60,238 nucleotides of DNA from NCBI GenBank assembly GCA_035290865.1, contig DATDTM010000027.1, positions 1 to 60,238 of the forward strand. Direction: 5' to 3'. Below the pieces are notes generated by a model that was given only the letters and a program-made list of their open reading frames with translations, was not told where the DNA came from and made no database searches. The stretch comes from Candidatus Nanoarchaeia archaeon (GTDB lineage Archaea; Nanobdellota; Nanobdellia; Woesearchaeales; GW2011-AR9). The position numbers and the translations under genes are program-made. Positions 242-60,238 of the stretch are shown here, piece by piece (the stretch's first letter is position 1; every line of letters begins with the position of its first letter).

Positions 242-745
242 ATGACTTTATTAAAAACACTAGCCCAGCCGGAAATAAGAACGCTCTTTGGCAAGCGAGA
301 GCTAGTGATAATTAGAAAACAGCTTTTGGGAGTGCTTTTAAAAGGCTCAGAAAAAACCCGGCTTTCCCGAGACATCCGTAAAAAATTTGAAGCTATTGCC
401 TTGTTGATTCCCTCCATAAAAGAATTTGAACTGAAAAAAGGGGCAGAGATTAAAAGATTGGTTGAGACAGCAAAAGAGGCCATTCTGGAAACCAAATTTT
501 TCCCTCGAATAAAGAAAATTATTCTCTTTGGTTCTGTGGCAGAAAACAAGCCCACGCTTCTTTCTGATATCGACTTAGCGGTAGAATTTACTCTCCTGGC
601 CGAGGGAGAGGCTACTCTTTTCCGGAGGGAAGTGCTGGGCCAATTAAACGAGAAATTTGATGTGCAGGTTTATAATCAATTACCAGCAAAGGTTAAAAAA
701 GAAATAGATGAAAAAGGGAAAGTGGTTTATGAACGAACGCATTAA
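242..745 (+). CDS. MntA-like minimal nucleotidyltransferase antitoxin with N-terminal extension
   Basis: GSVAENKPTLLSDID fits GSX10DXD; DVQVYNQLP C-terminal motif; overlaps the downstream HEPN gene; TATA-like TTTATAAATA at about 189-198. Confidence 0.85.
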   Translation: MTLLKTLAQPEIRTLFGKRELVIIRKQLLGVLLKGSEKTRLSRDIRKKFEAIALLIPSIKEFELKKGAEIKRLVETAKEAILETKFFPRIKKIILFGSVAENKPTLLSDIDLAVEFTLLAEGEATLFRREVLGQLNEKFDVQVYNQLPAKVKKEIDEKGKVVYERTH

Positions 746-1142
746 AGATAAGATTAAAGAAATTGAAAAATATTTAATGCAGCTAGAGGAAATAGTGCCA
801 GATAGCTTGGAGGAATACCAAGAAGACTTTAAAGCTAAAGCGGCATGCGAACGTTACTTAGAAAGGTTAGTAGAAGCTGCCGAAGACTTGGCTTTTTTGG
901 CGATTAAACATCTTGACCTGGAATCTCCAGAAGAGGAAAAAGAGATATTTCAAATCCTTTCCCGCACTAAAATAATTAGTTCTGATCTCTCTGATGAACT
1001 TAAACGTGCTAAAGGGATGCGTAATGTCATTGCCCACAAGTATGGGGAAATTGATGACAAAATAACTTTTGCAGCTGCAACAGAAGAAATCGGAAGAGAT
1101 TTAAAAGAACTAATTAAATCTATTAAAAGAAAAATAAACTAA
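729..1142 (+). CDS. HepT-like (DUF86) HEPN ribonuclease toxin
   Basis: MRNVIAHKYG fits RX4HXY; ACERYLERLVEA helix typical of DUF86; start moved to ATG 729 (ORF track 708). Confidence 0.88.
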   Translation: MNERIKDKIKEIEKYLMQLEEIVPDSLEEYQEDFKAKAACERYLERLVEAAEDLAFLAIKHLDLESPEEEKEIFQILSRTKIISSDLSDELKRAKGMRNVIAHKYGEIDDKITFAAATEEIGRDLKELIKSIKRKIN

Positions 1143-3597: not shown

Positions 3598-4536
3598 ATG
3601 AAAAAAATAAAAAAACATCTCTACGAAACTATCATTGTCGGCGGAGGCATTGCCGGCTGTACCGCAGCGATCTATGCTTCCAGAAAGAGGATGGATTACC
3701 TCTTGGTCACAGAAGATTTTGGAGGGCAGTTCCTGGAATCAGGAGAGGTGCTTAACTACCCAGGAATTGTTCAGACTACGGGAGCCGGTTTTTCTAATAT
3801 TATGGAAAGACAATTAAAATTTAATGAAGTAAAAGTTCAAGAGGGTATTAGAGTAGAAAAAATAGTTAGAAAAGGAAAGAATTTTTTATTGCAGACCACT
3901 AAAAAAGATTATCTTACCCAAACGGTAATTCTTTGTACGGGTTCTCATCCCAAAAGATTGAATGTTTTGGGTGAAGAAAAGTTCCGCGGCCGGGGAGTGA
4001 CTTACTGTGCTATCTGCGATGGGCCGCTTTTCAAAGGAAAAGAAGTAGCGGTAATCGGGGGCGGGGATTCTGCCCTGGAAGCAGTGGATTTTTTAGGGAA
4101 AATAGCTAAGAAAATCTATTTGCTGGTTTTAGAAGATAAGCTGAAAGCTCATGAATATCTTCAGGAAAGAGCTAAAAATAATCCCAAATTGAAGATAATC
4201 TATAATGCTAATACTACAGAAATTCTGGGGAATAAATTTGTGGAAAGATTGAGATATGAACAGAAAGGAGATAAGAGAAACAAACTGAAAGAGCTGAAAG
4301 TCCAGGGAATCTTTGTAGAGATCGGCAGAGTAGCTAATTCCGATTTTGTTAAAGAGCTAATAAAATTAGATGAACATGGGCATATTATTGCGGATTGCCA
4401 GACTTTTACTTCTGTTCAGGGAATATTTGCTGCCGGGGATTGCAGTTCTGTACATGAATACCAATATGTGATTTCCGCTGGAATGGCCTGTACTGCTTTG
4501 CTCAAGACGGCAAGGTATTTGGCTGGGAGGAAGTAG
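3598..4536 (+). CDS. trxB: Thioredoxin-disulfide reductase
   Basis: GGGIAG FAD motif, YCAICDG active site, GGGDSA NADPH motif, FAAGD. Confidence 0.92.
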   Translation: MKKIKKHLYETIIVGGGIAGCTAAIYASRKRMDYLLVTEDFGGQFLESGEVLNYPGIVQTTGAGFSNIMERQLKFNEVKVQEGIRVEKIVRKGKNFLLQTTKKDYLTQTVILCTGSHPKRLNVLGEEKFRGRGVTYCAICDGPLFKGKEVAVIGGGDSALEAVDFLGKIAKKIYLLVLEDKLKAHEYLQERAKNNPKLKIIYNANTTEILGNKFVERLRYEQKGDKRNKLKELKVQGIFVEIGRVANSDFVKELIKLDEHGHIIADCQTFTSVQGIFAAGDCSSVHEYQYVISAGMACTALLKTARYLAGRK

Positions 4537-4559
4537 AAGAAAATAAAATCAAGTGGTAA

Positions 4560-4643
4560 AATAAAGTCGTTTCCACCGGTCTTTGACCGGTGGTGCACTC
4601 CTAAGTCAAAATGCTCAGCTCCCATTATGCGAGCATTTTGACT
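4560..4643. repeat. Double-hairpin dispersed repeat, copy A (between convergent genes; possible bidirectional terminator or REP/MITE-like element)
   Basis: Perfect 9-bp stem 4573-4581/4585-4593 and 13-bp stem 4604-4616/4631-4643; 55 of 62 nt identical to 59946-60007. Confidence 0.8.
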
Positions 4644-4673
4644 AAAAGAAAAAAAAGAATAAAAAATAAAAAT

Positions 4674-35630: not shown

Positions 35631-37079
35631 ATGGAAAGCTTATTTTATACCGGACTTGAACCAAGAGCCAAATTACTGAAAGAGTTCGGCTTTACTGAAG
35701 AAAATCGAGAGGTAATCCCGGATCAGTTTGCCAATACCGGCTTTCCCAAGCCCAGAAAAGCCTATATGCTGACTATGGAAGCTTATGACCTTAGCCTGGA
35801 AGAGCCTTATTTCTGGGTCTTAGAGGAATTCAAGCGCCAATTTCCCATTATAGAAAAGTTGGAAGATTCTTTTGCGGCTGCAGAAAATTCTGCTTTTTTT
35901 GGGGCTACCCAGCAAAGGTTAGGTGCGCAGCAGGATCGGGCAGCCCAGTTCCTGAAAGGTTCCAGCGACATGATTAAAGGCCTGTTTCAGATGGTGCGAG
36001 AATTGAGAATTATTGATGAAAAATTGACCTATTACAACGAAGCTGAGGAGCAGACCCAAAAAGAAATAAGCAAAAGAAGTAAAGGTGCAGAAATTACCTT
36101 AAAAGGTTTCTTTGTGGATTTAGTCCAGGGAGCAGCGAAAAATCCAGCTTCAGTCTTTGGGATGGCCAGAGAATTAGAATTTATTACTTTACCAGATTTA
36201 TTTTTCGATGCTCCTCCATTTAAAGACGTTTCAGAATTAGATGCGCATATGAAAAGCTTAGAGAAAGATTTTAACCGCAGCTTGTTGAGGGTATTAGAAC
36301 GTCATCTGCGCCAGTTCATGGAATGGAAGAAAAGAACCCACCAAGAACATGCTAACCGGAGAAGATTCATGTTACAATACCTATTACAACATTTTGAGAT
36401 CATTAAAATGTATTTAGTCTGGGTTAAACCTTATCTGCGGGCAGCAGCGAGATTAACCATGAAAGAGAGAAACATACTCTCTCCGGATTTAATTTCCGCT
36501 TTTGAAGGAAGTATGTTAGATATAGAAATATTAGCCAGAAAACCTGAAGGAAAAGGAGCGAATTCCTGCCTATTAGCCACTTTTAGCTATCGGACCAGGC
36601 CAGAGATGAAAGTAGTTCAGGAAGGATATCAGCGCGGGCCGGTGCATATAGGCAGATACGAAATGAATTTCAGGATTTACGCCTGGACGGATCAGGAAGT
36701 GGAAAATTATAAGAAACTGAAAAATAAAGAAATCATGGAATTGATGGGAGATGTTTCTTCTTCGGTGCAAAAGGCCATGGAATCTTTAGGGAAAGAATTA
36801 GACTTATATTTGGCAGAGGCAAAAGGAGAGAAGGCGAAGAAAGAAGGAGAAGCGGTCGGAGAAAAAAAAGAGTCGAACAAGAAATCAGTGATGGAAAAAT
36901 TGTTTGGCGATTTCTATACCCCTAAAAGTGCTGCAGCCAAATCAACTGAGGATAAAGTAGGCAGCGGAAAGAGAACTTTATCTGAGGAGGAAGCGAAGAA
37001 AGCAGCAGGCTATGCGGGGTTCCATGCATTTAACATGTATAAGAATTTCAAGAAAGCGCATGGGATGGTACAGTGGTAA
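35631..37079 (+). CDS. Large helical hypothetical protein
   Basis: 482-aa ORF with coiled-coil character; no recognised motif. Confidence 0.75.
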   Translation: MESLFYTGLEPRAKLLKEFGFTEENREVIPDQFANTGFPKPRKAYMLTMEAYDLSLEEPYFWVLEEFKRQFPIIEKLEDSFAAAENSAFFGATQQRLGAQQDRAAQFLKGSSDMIKGLFQMVRELRIIDEKLTYYNEAEEQTQKEISKRSKGAEITLKGFFVDLVQGAAKNPASVFGMARELEFITLPDLFFDAPPFKDVSELDAHMKSLEKDFNRSLLRVLERHLRQFMEWKKRTHQEHANRRRFMLQYLLQHFEIIKMYLVWVKPYLRAAARLTMKERNILSPDLISAFEGSMLDIEILARKPEGKGANSCLLATFSYRTRPEMKVVQEGYQRGPVHIGRYEMNFRIYAWTDQEVENYKKLKNKEIMELMGDVSSSVQKAMESLGKELDLYLAEAKGEKAKKEGEAVGEKKESNKKSVMEKLFGDFYTPKSAAAKSTEDKVGSGKRTLSEEEAKKAAGYAGFHAFNMYKNFKKAHGMVQW

Positions 37080-59860: not shown

Positions 59861-59901
59861 AAAAGAGTATTCTTAGATTTTTTTTGAATGTTTTTATTCA
59901 A

Positions 59902-60021
59902 TGAAAATGGGTCTGATACCCCGCAGCTTGCTGCGACCCATTTTCAATAAAGTCGTTTCCACCAATCTTTGATTGGTGGCGCACTCCTCAGTCAAAATGT
60001 TCAGCTCTTATACATTTTGAC
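59902..60021. repeat. Triple-hairpin element including copy B of the double-hairpin repeat
   Basis: 12-bp stem 59902-59913/59935-59946 enclosing CGCAGCTTGCTGCG; 9-bp stem 59959-59967/59971-59979; 10-bp stem 59991-60000/60012-60021. Confidence 0.8.
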
Positions 60022-60238
60022 AGATGAATTAGGGAAGAAAAAAGATGTGCCGTTCTACTTCCGGGAACGGCTGAGGATGCGAGACAAGATGAAAACAGAT
60101 GAAGCAAAGAAAGTGTATTCTTTGCGGAAAATTACGGTCGAGCCGGTGTATGGGAATATCAAGCAAAATTTAGGATTCAGGGAATTTCTTCTTCGGGGCA
60201 AGGAAAAGGTGAAGATTGAGTTTAATTTAGTCTGTATT
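60020..60238 (+). mobile_element. IS1182-family (DDE) transposase C-terminal fragment, 5'-truncated and cut by the window end
   Basis: Frame 2 reads ...RDKMKTDEAKKVYSLRKITVEPVYGNIKQNLGFREFLLRGKEKVKIEFNLVCI, the RKxTVEPVxGxIK...GFRxFxLRG signature; no upstream transposase body. Confidence 0.8.

What the first reader, a model, noticed from the sequence alone, without database searches (positions are those of the whole stretch)
4560..4643. Dispersed double-hairpin element with compensatory base changes (copy A; copy B at 59946-60021)
Seen: two copies 55 kb apart share 55 of 62 nt. Four of the seven differences are two G-C to A-T swaps preserving the 9-bp stem (CCACCGGTC/GACCGGTGG versus CCACCAATC/GATTGGTGG). 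A fifth (C to T) is matched by G to A in hairpin 2. The unpaired 5' AATAAAGTCGTTT and linker GCACTCCT are conserved. Inference: the structure is under selection, as in a REP-like/MITE element mobilised by a HUH (Y1) transposase or a small structured RNA. Copy A fills the gap between convergent trxB and cupredoxin genes.
Basis: partly seen in the sequence, partly recalled or inferred. Interest (0 to 1): 0.66.

Follow-up and report, generated by a model that had tools for sequence, protein, structure and literature searches.

The report
Hairpin mini-transposon from an archaeal IS200
The two hairpin repeats are gene-less miniature copies (76-84 bases) of a small IS200-type jumping gene found in Woesearchaeota-like (DPANN) archaea, a known kind of mobile element, and their matched base changes keep the DNA hairpin that the transposase is expected to grip.

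Summary
Two + strand copies (4560-4643 and 59946-60021) share 55 of their first 62 nt, and the differences preserve both hairpins. The element is not an RNA gene. It is a non-autonomous member of the IS200/IS605 family, of the PATE (palindrome-associated transposable element) type.

- **Copy number:** depth in metagenomes holding this genome rises 8-11 fold over the element.
- **Relatives:** 16 further insertion sites lie in groundwater metagenome contigs, and 3 copies in genome-collection MAGs, two of them labelled Woesearchaeota.
- **Insertion polymorphism:** a ~90%-identical relative lacks copy A. It has only TTGTAAAATA at that site and shows no target duplication.
- **Shared target:** 16 of 19 mini-element sites and 6 of 6 full-IS sites follow TANAAT.
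- **Parent IS:** a 751-bp IS encoding only a 145-aa Y1/HUH TnpA occurs in the same metagenomes. Its left-end hairpin stem is identical to copy A's. Its right end aligns with the right part of 139-143-nt "long" mini-elements.
- **Window copies:** both are "short" forms that lost the right-end hairpin, apparently by deletion between two GCGAGC repeats. They may no longer move.
- **Hairpin 1:** 4 of 9 pairs show compensatory changes.

This is a new member of a known kind, of modest interest.

The parts
4557..4562 (+). TAAAAT: flanking target motif (TANAAT) directly 5' of copy A. It is not part of the mobile unit.
   Evidence: TANAAT precedes 16 of 19 mini-element sites and 6 of 6 full-IS sites. 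The motif remains at the empty site of the relative in run X11, which reads TTGTAAAAT|A.
4563..4642 (+). Copy A, a short-form non-autonomous IS200/IS605-type element (80 nt, AAAGTCG...CATTTTGAC).
   Evidence: Family boundaries from 15+ copies. Depth jumps from about 15 to 120-165 exactly at 4560. Absent from the relative's contig.
4573..4593 (+). Hairpin 1 of copy A, the left-end subterminal palindrome (CCACCGGTC TTT GACCGGTGG) and presumed TnpA binding site.
   Evidence: The stem is identical to the left-end hairpin stem of the 751-bp IS. 94% of cells pair, 4 of 9 pairs carry compensatory changes, and 0 of 500 shuffles reach the observed score.
4595..4602 (+). Invariant linker GCACTCCT. It is specific to the mini-element family and absent from the IS.
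   Evidence: Invariant in 15 of 15 aligned copies, though all were retrieved with a search pattern that requires this octamer (L167, found without it, reads GCACTCTT). Not present in the IS left end.
4605..4642 (+). Hairpin 2 of copy A. The family-specific arm GTCAAAATGCTC pairs with the right-end terminus GAGCATTTTGAC. The 56-60 nt right-end domain that long forms carry between two GCGAGC repeats is missing here.
   Evidence: Folds. Comparison of long and short forms. 96% paired, but only 2 compensatory cells.
59943..59948 (+). TTCAAT: target-like motif 5' of copy B. It lies inside the end of another repeated hairpin element.
59949..60021 (+). Copy B, a short-form element (73 nt) with a slightly larger internal deletion (...GCTCTTATACATTTTGAC).
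   Evidence: A similarly deleted copy sits in a Woesearchaeota MAG, locus L167.
59959..59979 (+). Hairpin 1 of copy B (CCACCAATC TTT GATTGGTGG).
   Evidence: The same stem variant occurs in L095 and L103.
59991..60021 (+). Hairpin 2 of copy B (10 bp, GTCAAAATGT / ACATTTTGAC).

Best explanation
The two repeats are gene-less miniature derivatives of an IS200-group insertion sequence (IS200/IS605 family). They are the same kind of element as the PATEs described in haloarchaea, here in a Woesearchaeota-like DPANN archaeon from groundwater.

Inferred mechanism, taken from what is established for IS608 and ISDra2. A Y1/HUH transposase (TnpA) is supplied in trans by a ~750-bp IS of the same lineage. 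It binds the subterminal hairpins that form on the top strand when the DNA is single-stranded. It cuts at the element ends, releases a single-stranded circle, and pastes it immediately 3' of a short target motif, here TANAAT. This leaves no terminal inverted repeats and no target duplication.

Hairpin 1 is the left-end recognition hairpin. TnpA needs its shape more than its sequence, so stem mutations survive only when compensated.

Full mini-elements are 139-143 nt. They carry a second, similar hairpin inside a right-end domain homologous to the IS right end. The two window copies have lost that domain, apparently by deletion between two GCGAGC direct repeats.

Shown here: family membership, copy number, insertion polymorphism, shared target motif, end homology and covariation. 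Inferred: TnpA action in trans, the DNA level of selection, and the likely immobility of the short forms.
For: 1. Multi-copy. Contig depth over 4560-4604 is 120-165 against 15 in the flanks in four runs that hold the window. It is 445 against 82 in a related genome.
2. Spread. There are 16 further insertion sites in metagenome contigs and 3 copies in genome-collection MAGs, two of them labelled Woesearchaeota.
3. Empty site. A 41.5-kb contig of a ~90%-identical relative joins 4540 to 4649 with only TTGTAAAATA between. The target TAAAAT is retained and nothing is duplicated.
4. Shared target. TANAAT lies 5' of 16 of 19 mini-element sites and 6 of 6 IS sites.
5. Transposase link. Locus L100 has the same 5' end followed by a 143-aa ORF matching Pfam Y1_Tnp (E 1.9e-8, 34.9 bits against a cut-off of 23). 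Its 85%-identical homologue P0003 lies in a 751-bp element at more than 5 different sites, including samples of the window's own study. A 758-nt contig of this IS is present at depth 72 in run X1, which holds the window.
6. End homology. The left-end stem CCACCGGTC/GACCGGTGG is identical in the IS and in copy A. The 71-75 nt right part of long mini-elements aligns along the whole IS right end, including ...GCGAGC(A)TTTTGAC.
7. Transposase motifs. The HUH histidines and Y125...Q129 are invariant in 21 family members.
8. Covariation. Hairpin 1 has 4 of 9 pairs with double changes, 12 cells, and 0 of 500 shuffles reach the score.
9. Negative results that fit. There are no terminal inverted repeats (direct reading of the ends), no ORF, and no Rfam family.
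10. Definition. These features match the published definition of PATEs, including repeat-mediated core deletion down to ~52 bp (PMC3119063). A 51-nt single-hairpin copy exists at L116 13546-13596.
Against: - No tnpA lies in the 60-kb window. I could not show that the IS belongs to the same genome rather than to a co-occurring relative.
- The related genome in run X11 has at least 5 mini-element copies but no tnpA at 80% nucleotide likeness or above.
- The mini-element is not a plain deletion product of the sampled IS. Its first 10 nt (AAAGTCGTTT against TTGTTTT) and the GCACTCCT-AAGTCAAAATGCTCAGC module are absent from the IS.
- The window's short forms lack the right-end hairpin that IS608-type transposition needs, yet short forms occur at several sites. 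Recurrent deletion and mobility of the short form cannot be told apart.
- The empty-site comparison is with a ~10% diverged relative and includes small indels in an A-rich tract, so the right boundary there is uncertain by a few bases.
- The compensatory patterns could partly come from recombination between hairpin variants rather than stepwise mutation and selection. Hybrid stems with two mismatches exist in L081, L093 and L132.
Confidence: 0.86

Rival explanations
1. It is a multi-copy small structured RNA gene or a cis-regulatory RNA, and the covariation reflects RNA folding.
For: The RNA folds are strong (z -7.2 and -6.4). The unpaired segments AAAGTCGTTT and GCACTCCT are invariant while the stems vary. 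U-G pairs occur in both hairpins on the + strand. RNA expression could not be tested because no RNA runs were listed.
Against: There is no Rfam match even at E up to 10. Sequence beyond 6 nt upstream is unrelated between copies, so no promoter is shared. The element is absent from a close relative at the same locus. Its ends are homologous to the ends of a transposase-bearing IS. Whole hairpin modules come and go between copies. The minus strand folds equally well, as expected for DNA palindromes.
Confidence: 0.05
2. It is a REP/REPIN-type repeat served by a domesticated single-copy RAYT transposase.
For: It is a short hairpin repeat linked to a Y1/HUH protein. JGI labels several TnpA homologues 'REP element-mobilizing transposase RayT'. 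A 51-nt single-hairpin form exists.
Against: The TnpA gene sits in a 751-bp unit with its own left and right ends at many different genomic sites; 22 contigs were read and more than 5 distinct flanks seen. That is IS behaviour, not a single domesticated gene flanked by REPs. The copies are not arranged as inverted pairs. The closest solved structures are ISDra2 TnpA, and only weakly (E 0.07). The RayT label is a generic automatic name.
Confidence: 0.04
3. It is a PATE that carries a guide RNA (omega-RNA) for a TnpB or IscB nuclease encoded elsewhere, with the 3' hairpin acting as scaffold and the flank as guide.
For: Published PATE-like elements often encode omega-RNAs (PMC10055086). The right end is highly structured.
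Against: The parent IS encodes TnpA only. No tnpB-like gene was found among the window ORFs that were scanned or beside the copies that were read. No omega-RNA-type Rfam family matched.
Confidence: 0.03
4. The hairpins are ordinary intergenic terminators or chance palindromes shared by two loci.
For: Copy A lies between convergent genes.
Against: No T-run follows either hairpin on either strand; the T-runs that would end the cupredoxin transcript precede the element. Archaeal termination does not need hairpins (established knowledge). The 80-nt similarity is far beyond chance and occurs at dozens of unrelated loci.
Confidence: 0.02

Closest known systems
PATEs (palindrome-associated transposable elements) of Haloquadratum walsbyi and other haloarchaea (PMC3119063)
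   Same: They are too short to code and have no terminal inverted repeats. They carry near-terminal palindromes resembling those of IS200/IS605-type transposons. They make no target duplication and insert next to a short targeting oligonucleotide. They decay by repeat-mediated core deletion to ~52-bp terminal-only versions, and they sit in clusters with other mobile elements.
   Different: The host is a DPANN (Woesearchaeota-like) archaeon, not a haloarchaeon. The related IS is an IS200-group element with TnpA only, whereas haloarchaeal PATEs mostly relate to IS1341/TnpB-type elements. There is no sequence similarity. The family carries its own conserved internal module, GCACTCCT plus an arm that pairs with the right-end terminus.
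IS608 (Helicobacter pylori) and ISDra2 (Deinococcus radiodurans), the mechanistic models of IS200/IS605 'peel and paste' transposition
   Same: The transposase is a Y1/HUH TnpA of about 140-155 aa. Similar subterminal hairpins sit at both ends on one strand. Insertion is 3' of a fixed short motif without duplication.
   Different: The TnpA here is very divergent (best PDB match ISDra2 TnpA, E 0.07). The target motif is TANAAT rather than TTAC or TTGAT. The window copies have no gene and lack the right-end hairpin.
PATE-like minimal elements of Geobacillus stearothermophilus ISGst families (PMC10055086)
   Same: These are gene-less elements sharing left and right ends and transposon-adjacent motifs with autonomous IS200/IS605 elements, and are predicted to be mobilised in trans by TnpA.
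   Different: Those are bacterial and tied to TnpB/IscB omega-RNAs. No such nuclease or guide RNA is evident here.
REP/REPIN elements with RAYT transposases
   Same: Both are short hairpin repeats acted on by a Y1/HUH protein.
   Different: RAYTs are single-copy domesticated genes flanked by REPs. Here the TnpA travels inside a multi-copy IS.

Membership tests
IS200/IS605 family (parent IS, 751 bp, e.g. L140 1512-2262) | Encodes a Y1 (HUH) tyrosine transposase TnpA | tested here: met
   Pfam Y1_Tnp, E 1.9e-8, 34.9 bits against a cut-off of 23. H63-x-H65 and Y125...Q129 are invariant in 21 homologues. There is weak sequence similarity to ISDra2 TnpA structures.
IS200/IS605 family (parent IS) | Subterminal hairpins at both ends on the same strand, and no terminal inverted repeats | tested here: met
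   The left end has CCACCGGTC...GACCGGTGG and the right end has CCACCAGTG...CACTGGTGG, in the same orientation. The termini TTGTTTT... and ...CTTTGAC are not inverted repeats.
IS200/IS605 family (parent IS and mini-element) | Insertion 3' of a conserved short target with no target-site duplication | tested here: met
   TANAAT lies 5' of 6 of 6 IS sites and 16 of 19 mini-element sites. The flanks show no duplication. The empty site in the relative keeps TAAAAT once.
IS200/IS605 family | Single-strand excision and integration catalysed by TnpA | not testable with these tools
   This needs biochemical or genetic assays.
PATE / IS200-IS605-derived miniature element (window copies) | Too short to encode a transposase | tested here: met
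   The copies are 80 and 73 nt and carry no ORF.
PATE / IS200-IS605-derived miniature element | Ends and near-terminal palindromes related to those of an IS200/IS605-type transposon | tested here: met
   The left-end stem is identical to that of the IS. The right-end terminus GCGAGCATTTTGAC matches GCGAGCTTTGAC in the IS. Long forms align over the whole IS right end.
PATE / IS200-IS605-derived miniature element | Palindromes near both termini | tested here: inconclusive
   Long forms (L097, L103, L123, L125, L092) have both. The two window copies keep the left-end palindrome only. Their 3' hairpin is built from a family-specific arm plus the right-end terminus, not from the TnpA-type right-end hairpin.
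PATE / IS200-IS605-derived miniature element | Multi-copy, with strain-specific insertions | tested here: met
   Depth rises 8-11 fold. At least 5 copies occur in a relative, and copy A is absent there.
REP/RAYT system | Single-copy domesticated Y1 gene flanked by REP sequences, with REPs often in inverted pairs | tested here: not met
   TnpA lies in a multi-copy 751-bp IS at many sites. The copies are solitary and not inverted pairs.
Canonical MITE | Terminal inverted repeats and a target-site duplication | tested here: not met
   The termini AAAGTCG... and ...TTTTGAC are not inverted repeats, and there is no duplication.
Described RNA family (Rfam 15) | Covariance-model match at the gathering score | tested here: not met
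   There were no hits in the window element, in long forms or in 10 related loci. The best E-values are above 1.

The most novel reading that the evidence does not exclude
The family-specific module, meaning the invariant GCACTCCT plus the arm GTCAAAATGCTC that pairs with the right-end terminus, could be a functional addition rather than filler. One possibility is a built-in structure that masks or presents the right-end cleavage site, so that elements lacking the canonical right-end hairpin can still be mobilised. Another is that the module is expressed as a small RNA that regulates the parent TnpA. Either would make the short double-hairpin form a distinct, self-sufficient minimal substrate for a divergent archaeal Y1 transposase.
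Probability: 0.1. Interest if true: 0.55.

Novelty: new member of a known kind. Interest (0 to 1): 0.3.

Why it matters
The result turns an apparent candidate structured RNA into an annotated mobile element, which avoids a false ncRNA call.

It documents an active-looking IS200-type transposon and its miniature derivatives in Woesearchaeota-like DPANN archaea. These have small genomes and their mobile elements are little described.

It also supplies material for later work:
- a clean target motif (TANAAT);
- a divergent clade of Y1 transposases;
- a natural deletion series of 291, 174, 143, 83 and 51 nt, useful for defining the minimal DNA substrate of such a transposase;
- repeats that break metagenome assemblies at these sites, which matters for binning and finishing such MAGs.

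Tried and rejected
1. The first genome-collection scan used AAAGTCGTTT-N20-28-GCACTCCT. It gave 70 loci, all chance matches in unrelated taxa and mostly inside coding sequence. The same pattern in viral contigs gave 5 chance matches.
2. I considered a group II intron 5' end or domains V/VI because long forms continue as GCGAGCGACCCGAGCCC.... I rejected it: there is no Rfam intron hit, and that segment proved to be the IS right end.
3. I considered H/ACA or C/D sRNA, hammerhead-type ribozymes, a CRISPR repeat or tracrRNA, and an SD/anti-SD role for GCACTCCT. No motifs, arrays or start codons fit on reading, and Rfam was negative.
4. The cupredoxin ORF from its GTG start is not on record as an exact protein. 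The trxB-like protein worked instead.
L100 was accepted and served the purpose.
6. tblastn of five TnpA proteins and blastn of the IS against the window found no transposase and no third copy. An nhmmer search of all loci added only one extra copy, in L116.
7. The repeat just upstream of copy B (59903-59945) has no other copy in any fetched locus.
8. No RNA-seq runs were available.

Full report
**1. The observation**

Copy A (4560-4643) and copy B (59946-60021) lie on the + strand as described.
- Over the first 62 nt there are seven differences. Four of them turn CCACCGGTC/GACCGGTGG into CCACCAATC/GATTGGTGG. A fifth, C>T in the 5' arm of the second hairpin, is matched by G>A in its 3' arm.
- An 18-mer and a 25-mer of the element each occur exactly twice in the window, against 0.07 and 0.00 expected.
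- Both copies fold into two hairpins much better than shuffled sequence, as RNA (z -7.2 and -6.4) and as DNA (z -8.3 and -7.3). The opposite strand folds equally well.

**2. The setting**

- The window has about 37% G+C. It encodes a tRNA-intron endonuclease, several aminoacyl-tRNA synthetases, an S-layer protein and other housekeeping genes, so the host is an archaeon.
- The window sequence is held by groundwater and soil metagenome runs.
- Exact copies of the trxB-like protein occur on contigs of a groundwater study.
- Related elements and transposases carry source names such as Candidatus Woesearchaeota, Nanoarchaeota and Nanoarchaeia. The host is therefore most likely a Woesearchaeota-like DPANN archaeon. 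This is an inference from relatives, not from a phylogeny of the window itself.

**3. Copy number**

I laid the contigs of four runs that hold the window onto 4530-4670.
- Depth rises from about 15 in the flanks to 120-165 over 4560-4604, then falls stepwise to about 31 at 4635-4645.
- The 5' boundary is sharp at 4557-4560, where several contigs have unrelated sequence upstream.
- So about 8-11 copy equivalents share the 5' part. Fewer share the exact 3' part.
- Two Logan contigs end inside hairpin 1, consistent with a repeat breaking the assembly.

**4. Relatives**

- A pattern built from the two unpaired conserved blocks found only chance matches among genome representatives and viral contigs.
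- The same approach in metagenome contigs recovered true relatives at 13 distinct sites.
- A second scan of genome representatives, using only the 5' end, found three more: two Woesearchaeota MAGs and one MAG labelled Methanosarcinales.
- All copies begin AAAGTCGTTT-hairpin-TGCACTCCT. With a few base changes, all end ...GCGAGCATTTTGAC. They come in size classes of 51, 73-83, 118-151, 174 and 291 nt.

**5. Anatomy of the full form (139-143 nt; L097, L103, L123, L125)**

In order:
- AAAGTCGTTT;
- hairpin 1;
- T-GCACTCCT;
- the arm AAGTCAAAATGCTC;
- about 18 nt ending in GCGAGC;
- a domain GACCC-[small GC hairpin]-CATG-[hairpin CCACCAGTC TGT GACTGGTGG]-TGGTC;
- GCGAGCATTTTGAC.

The last 12 nt pair with the internal arm. 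The second CCACC...GGTGG hairpin resembles hairpin 1 and has the same orientation.

The short forms, including both window copies, lack everything between the two GCGAGC repeats. Copy B and L167 lack slightly more. That pattern fits repeat-mediated deletion. A 51-nt copy in L116 (13546-13596) fuses the left hairpin arm directly to the right-end tail.

**6. The link to a transposase**

- In L100 the same 5' end is followed about 340 nt later by a 143-aa ORF that matches Pfam Y1_Tnp above threshold.
- Its homologues number 280 at E <= 1e-3. Most sit on ~1-kb contigs, as expected of repeats.
- One homologue is P0003 (85% identical). It lies on at least 22 contigs, some from samples of the window's own study.
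- Comparing eight of these places defines a 751-bp element. Flanking sequence is unrelated up to TA(T/A)AAT. The element then starts TTGTTTTCCACCGGTC...GACCGGTGG and ends ...CCACCAGTGTTTTGTTCACTGGTGGTGGGCGCGAGCTTTGAC, after which the flanks differ again.
- It carries only tnpA, which places it in the IS200 group.
- The TnpA family has invariant H-x-H and Y...Q motifs. Its nearest solved relative is ISDra2 TnpA, and only weakly (E 0.07).

**7. Homology of the ends**

- The IS left-end hairpin stem is identical to hairpin 1 of copy A. The IS merely carries 22-41 extra nt in the loop.
- The 71-75 nt right part of long mini-elements aligns with the whole IS right end.
- The first 10 nt and the GCACTCCT-AAGTCAAAATGCTCAGC module are specific to the mini-element.
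- As with many miniature elements, then, only the functional ends are shared.

**8. Target and empty site**

- The six bases 5' of the element read TANAAT at 16 of 19 mini-element sites and 6 of 6 IS sites. Position -4 is free and the sequence further upstream is unrelated.
- In run X11 a 41.5-kb contig of a relative (roughly 7-14% diverged in the flanking genes) joins 4540 to 4649 with only TTGTAAAATA in between.
- That site therefore has TAAAAT once, no element and no duplication.
- The same relative holds at least 5 copies elsewhere, one of them at the end of that very contig.
- This is a strain-specific insertion of the IS200/IS605 kind.

**9. Covariation**

- Hairpin 1, across 15 distinct copies: 94% of cells pair. 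Four of nine pairs show changes on both sides (12 cells). No shuffle of 500 reaches the observed covariation score, and sliding the partner by 1 to 3 columns collapses pairing to 17-66%.
- The right-end hairpins also differ compensatorily between copies, for example CCCTCGGTC/GACCGAGGG against CCACCCGTC/GACGGGTGG.
- Hairpin 2 is 96% paired, but mostly through sequence identity. Only two cells carry double changes, and 33 of 500 shuffles do as well.
- Some hairpin 1 stems are hybrids with two mismatches (L081, L093, L132). Exchange between variants may therefore contribute to the pattern.

**10. Interpretation**

Every defining feature of an IS200/IS605 derivative that can be read from sequence is present:
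- a linked Y1/HUH TnpA;
- same-strand subterminal hairpins;
- no inverted termini;
- no duplication;
- a fixed 5' target;
- multi-copy distribution with insertion polymorphism.

The features match the published definition of PATEs, including core deletion to ~52 bp and clustering with other mobile elements (PMC3119063; compare PMC10055086). The mechanism is inferred from IS608 and ISDra2 and was not tested here: TnpA binds the hairpins on single-stranded DNA, then excises and pastes the element 3' of the target. Selection for hairpin shape explains the compensatory swaps.

**11. What remains open**

- No tnpA or tnpB lies in the window.
- A 758-nt contig of the IS is present at depth 72 in run X1, where the window genome is at about 15. 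It cannot be assigned to this genome.
- The X11 relative has mini-elements but no tnpA at 80% nucleotide likeness or above.
- The window's short copies lack the right-end hairpin and may be immobile relics. Equally, their 3' hairpin may substitute for it.
- No RNA data exist for these samples, so an added RNA-level role cannot be excluded.

**12. The surroundings of copy B**

The relative in X11 matches the window only up to 59864. Beyond that point the window holds, in order:
- a different repeated hairpin (59903-59945, 13-14 fold depth);
- copy B;
- a C-terminal fragment of a DDE_Tnp_1_6 transposase (60047-60238) at 25-40 fold depth.

This is a cluster of mobile elements. Copy B's target-like TTCAAT is the end of the neighbouring repeat.

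**13. Verdict**

The element is a new member (DPANN archaeal, IS200-group derived) of a known kind, and interest is modest.

Noticed in passing
window 59903-59945: A different hairpin repeat (GAAAATGGGTC...GACCCATTTTC) lies directly 5' of copy B. In runs X1 and X4 its depth is 13-14 times that of the flank (236 against 16.7 in X1). Its end supplies the TTCAAT after which copy B sits. No other copy is present in any fetched locus.
   Followed up: partly
window 60047-60238: A C-terminal fragment of a DDE_Tnp_1_6 (IS1182/IS5-like) transposase runs off the window end (Pfam E 6.7e-15). Depth there is 25-40 times the genome's, so this IS family is highly repeated in the community. The X11 relative diverges from the window at 59864, so 59865-60238 is a strain-specific cluster of mobile elements.
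   Followed up: partly
L116 13546-13596 (minus strand of the locus): A 51-nt minimal copy: AAAGTCGTTT, a single hairpin, then TGGTCGCAAGCATTTAGAC. It looks like the left-end and right-end hairpins recombined, which parallels the 52-bp terminal-only PATEs of Haloquadratum.
   Followed up: partly
L100 3255-3600: A TnpA-bearing IS (its left end starts TAGCTTTTTCCATCCGGTC) appears to be inserted inside a mini-element copy, right after an internal AAAAT. That is the same target rule, applied within another element.
   Followed up: partly
L139 versus L142: The same IS has an identical left flank (ribosomal L1/L10/P1 operon) but different right flanks in two assemblies. This is either IS-mediated rearrangement between strains or assembly chimerism at the repeat.
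   Followed up: no
L165 (MAG labelled Methanosarcinales), oriented position ~5754: A clear family member with a shortened hairpin 1 sits in a MAG labelled Methanosarcinales, outside DPANN. The cause could be mis-binning or horizontal transfer.
   Followed up: no
L123, downstream of the element: The copy is followed directly by an ORF fragment that looks like the C-terminal part of another transposase. This was read by eye only and not scanned against Pfam. It would be another case of the element sitting next to a broken IS.
   Followed up: no
window 242-1142: Adjacent nucleotidyltransferase (Polbeta/NTP_transf_2) and HepT-like (HEPN) genes form a likely MNT-HEPN toxin-antitoxin pair, judging by the Pfam marks on the identical contig L071.
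   Followed up: no
window 35631-37079: A 482-aa ORF has no Pfam match at E <= 1e-5.
   Followed up: no
run X11 (related genome): This genome carries at least 5 mini-element copies at genome depth, but no tnpA at 80% nucleotide likeness or above to the L100 type. Either a more divergent transposase serves them or they are orphaned.
   Followed up: partly
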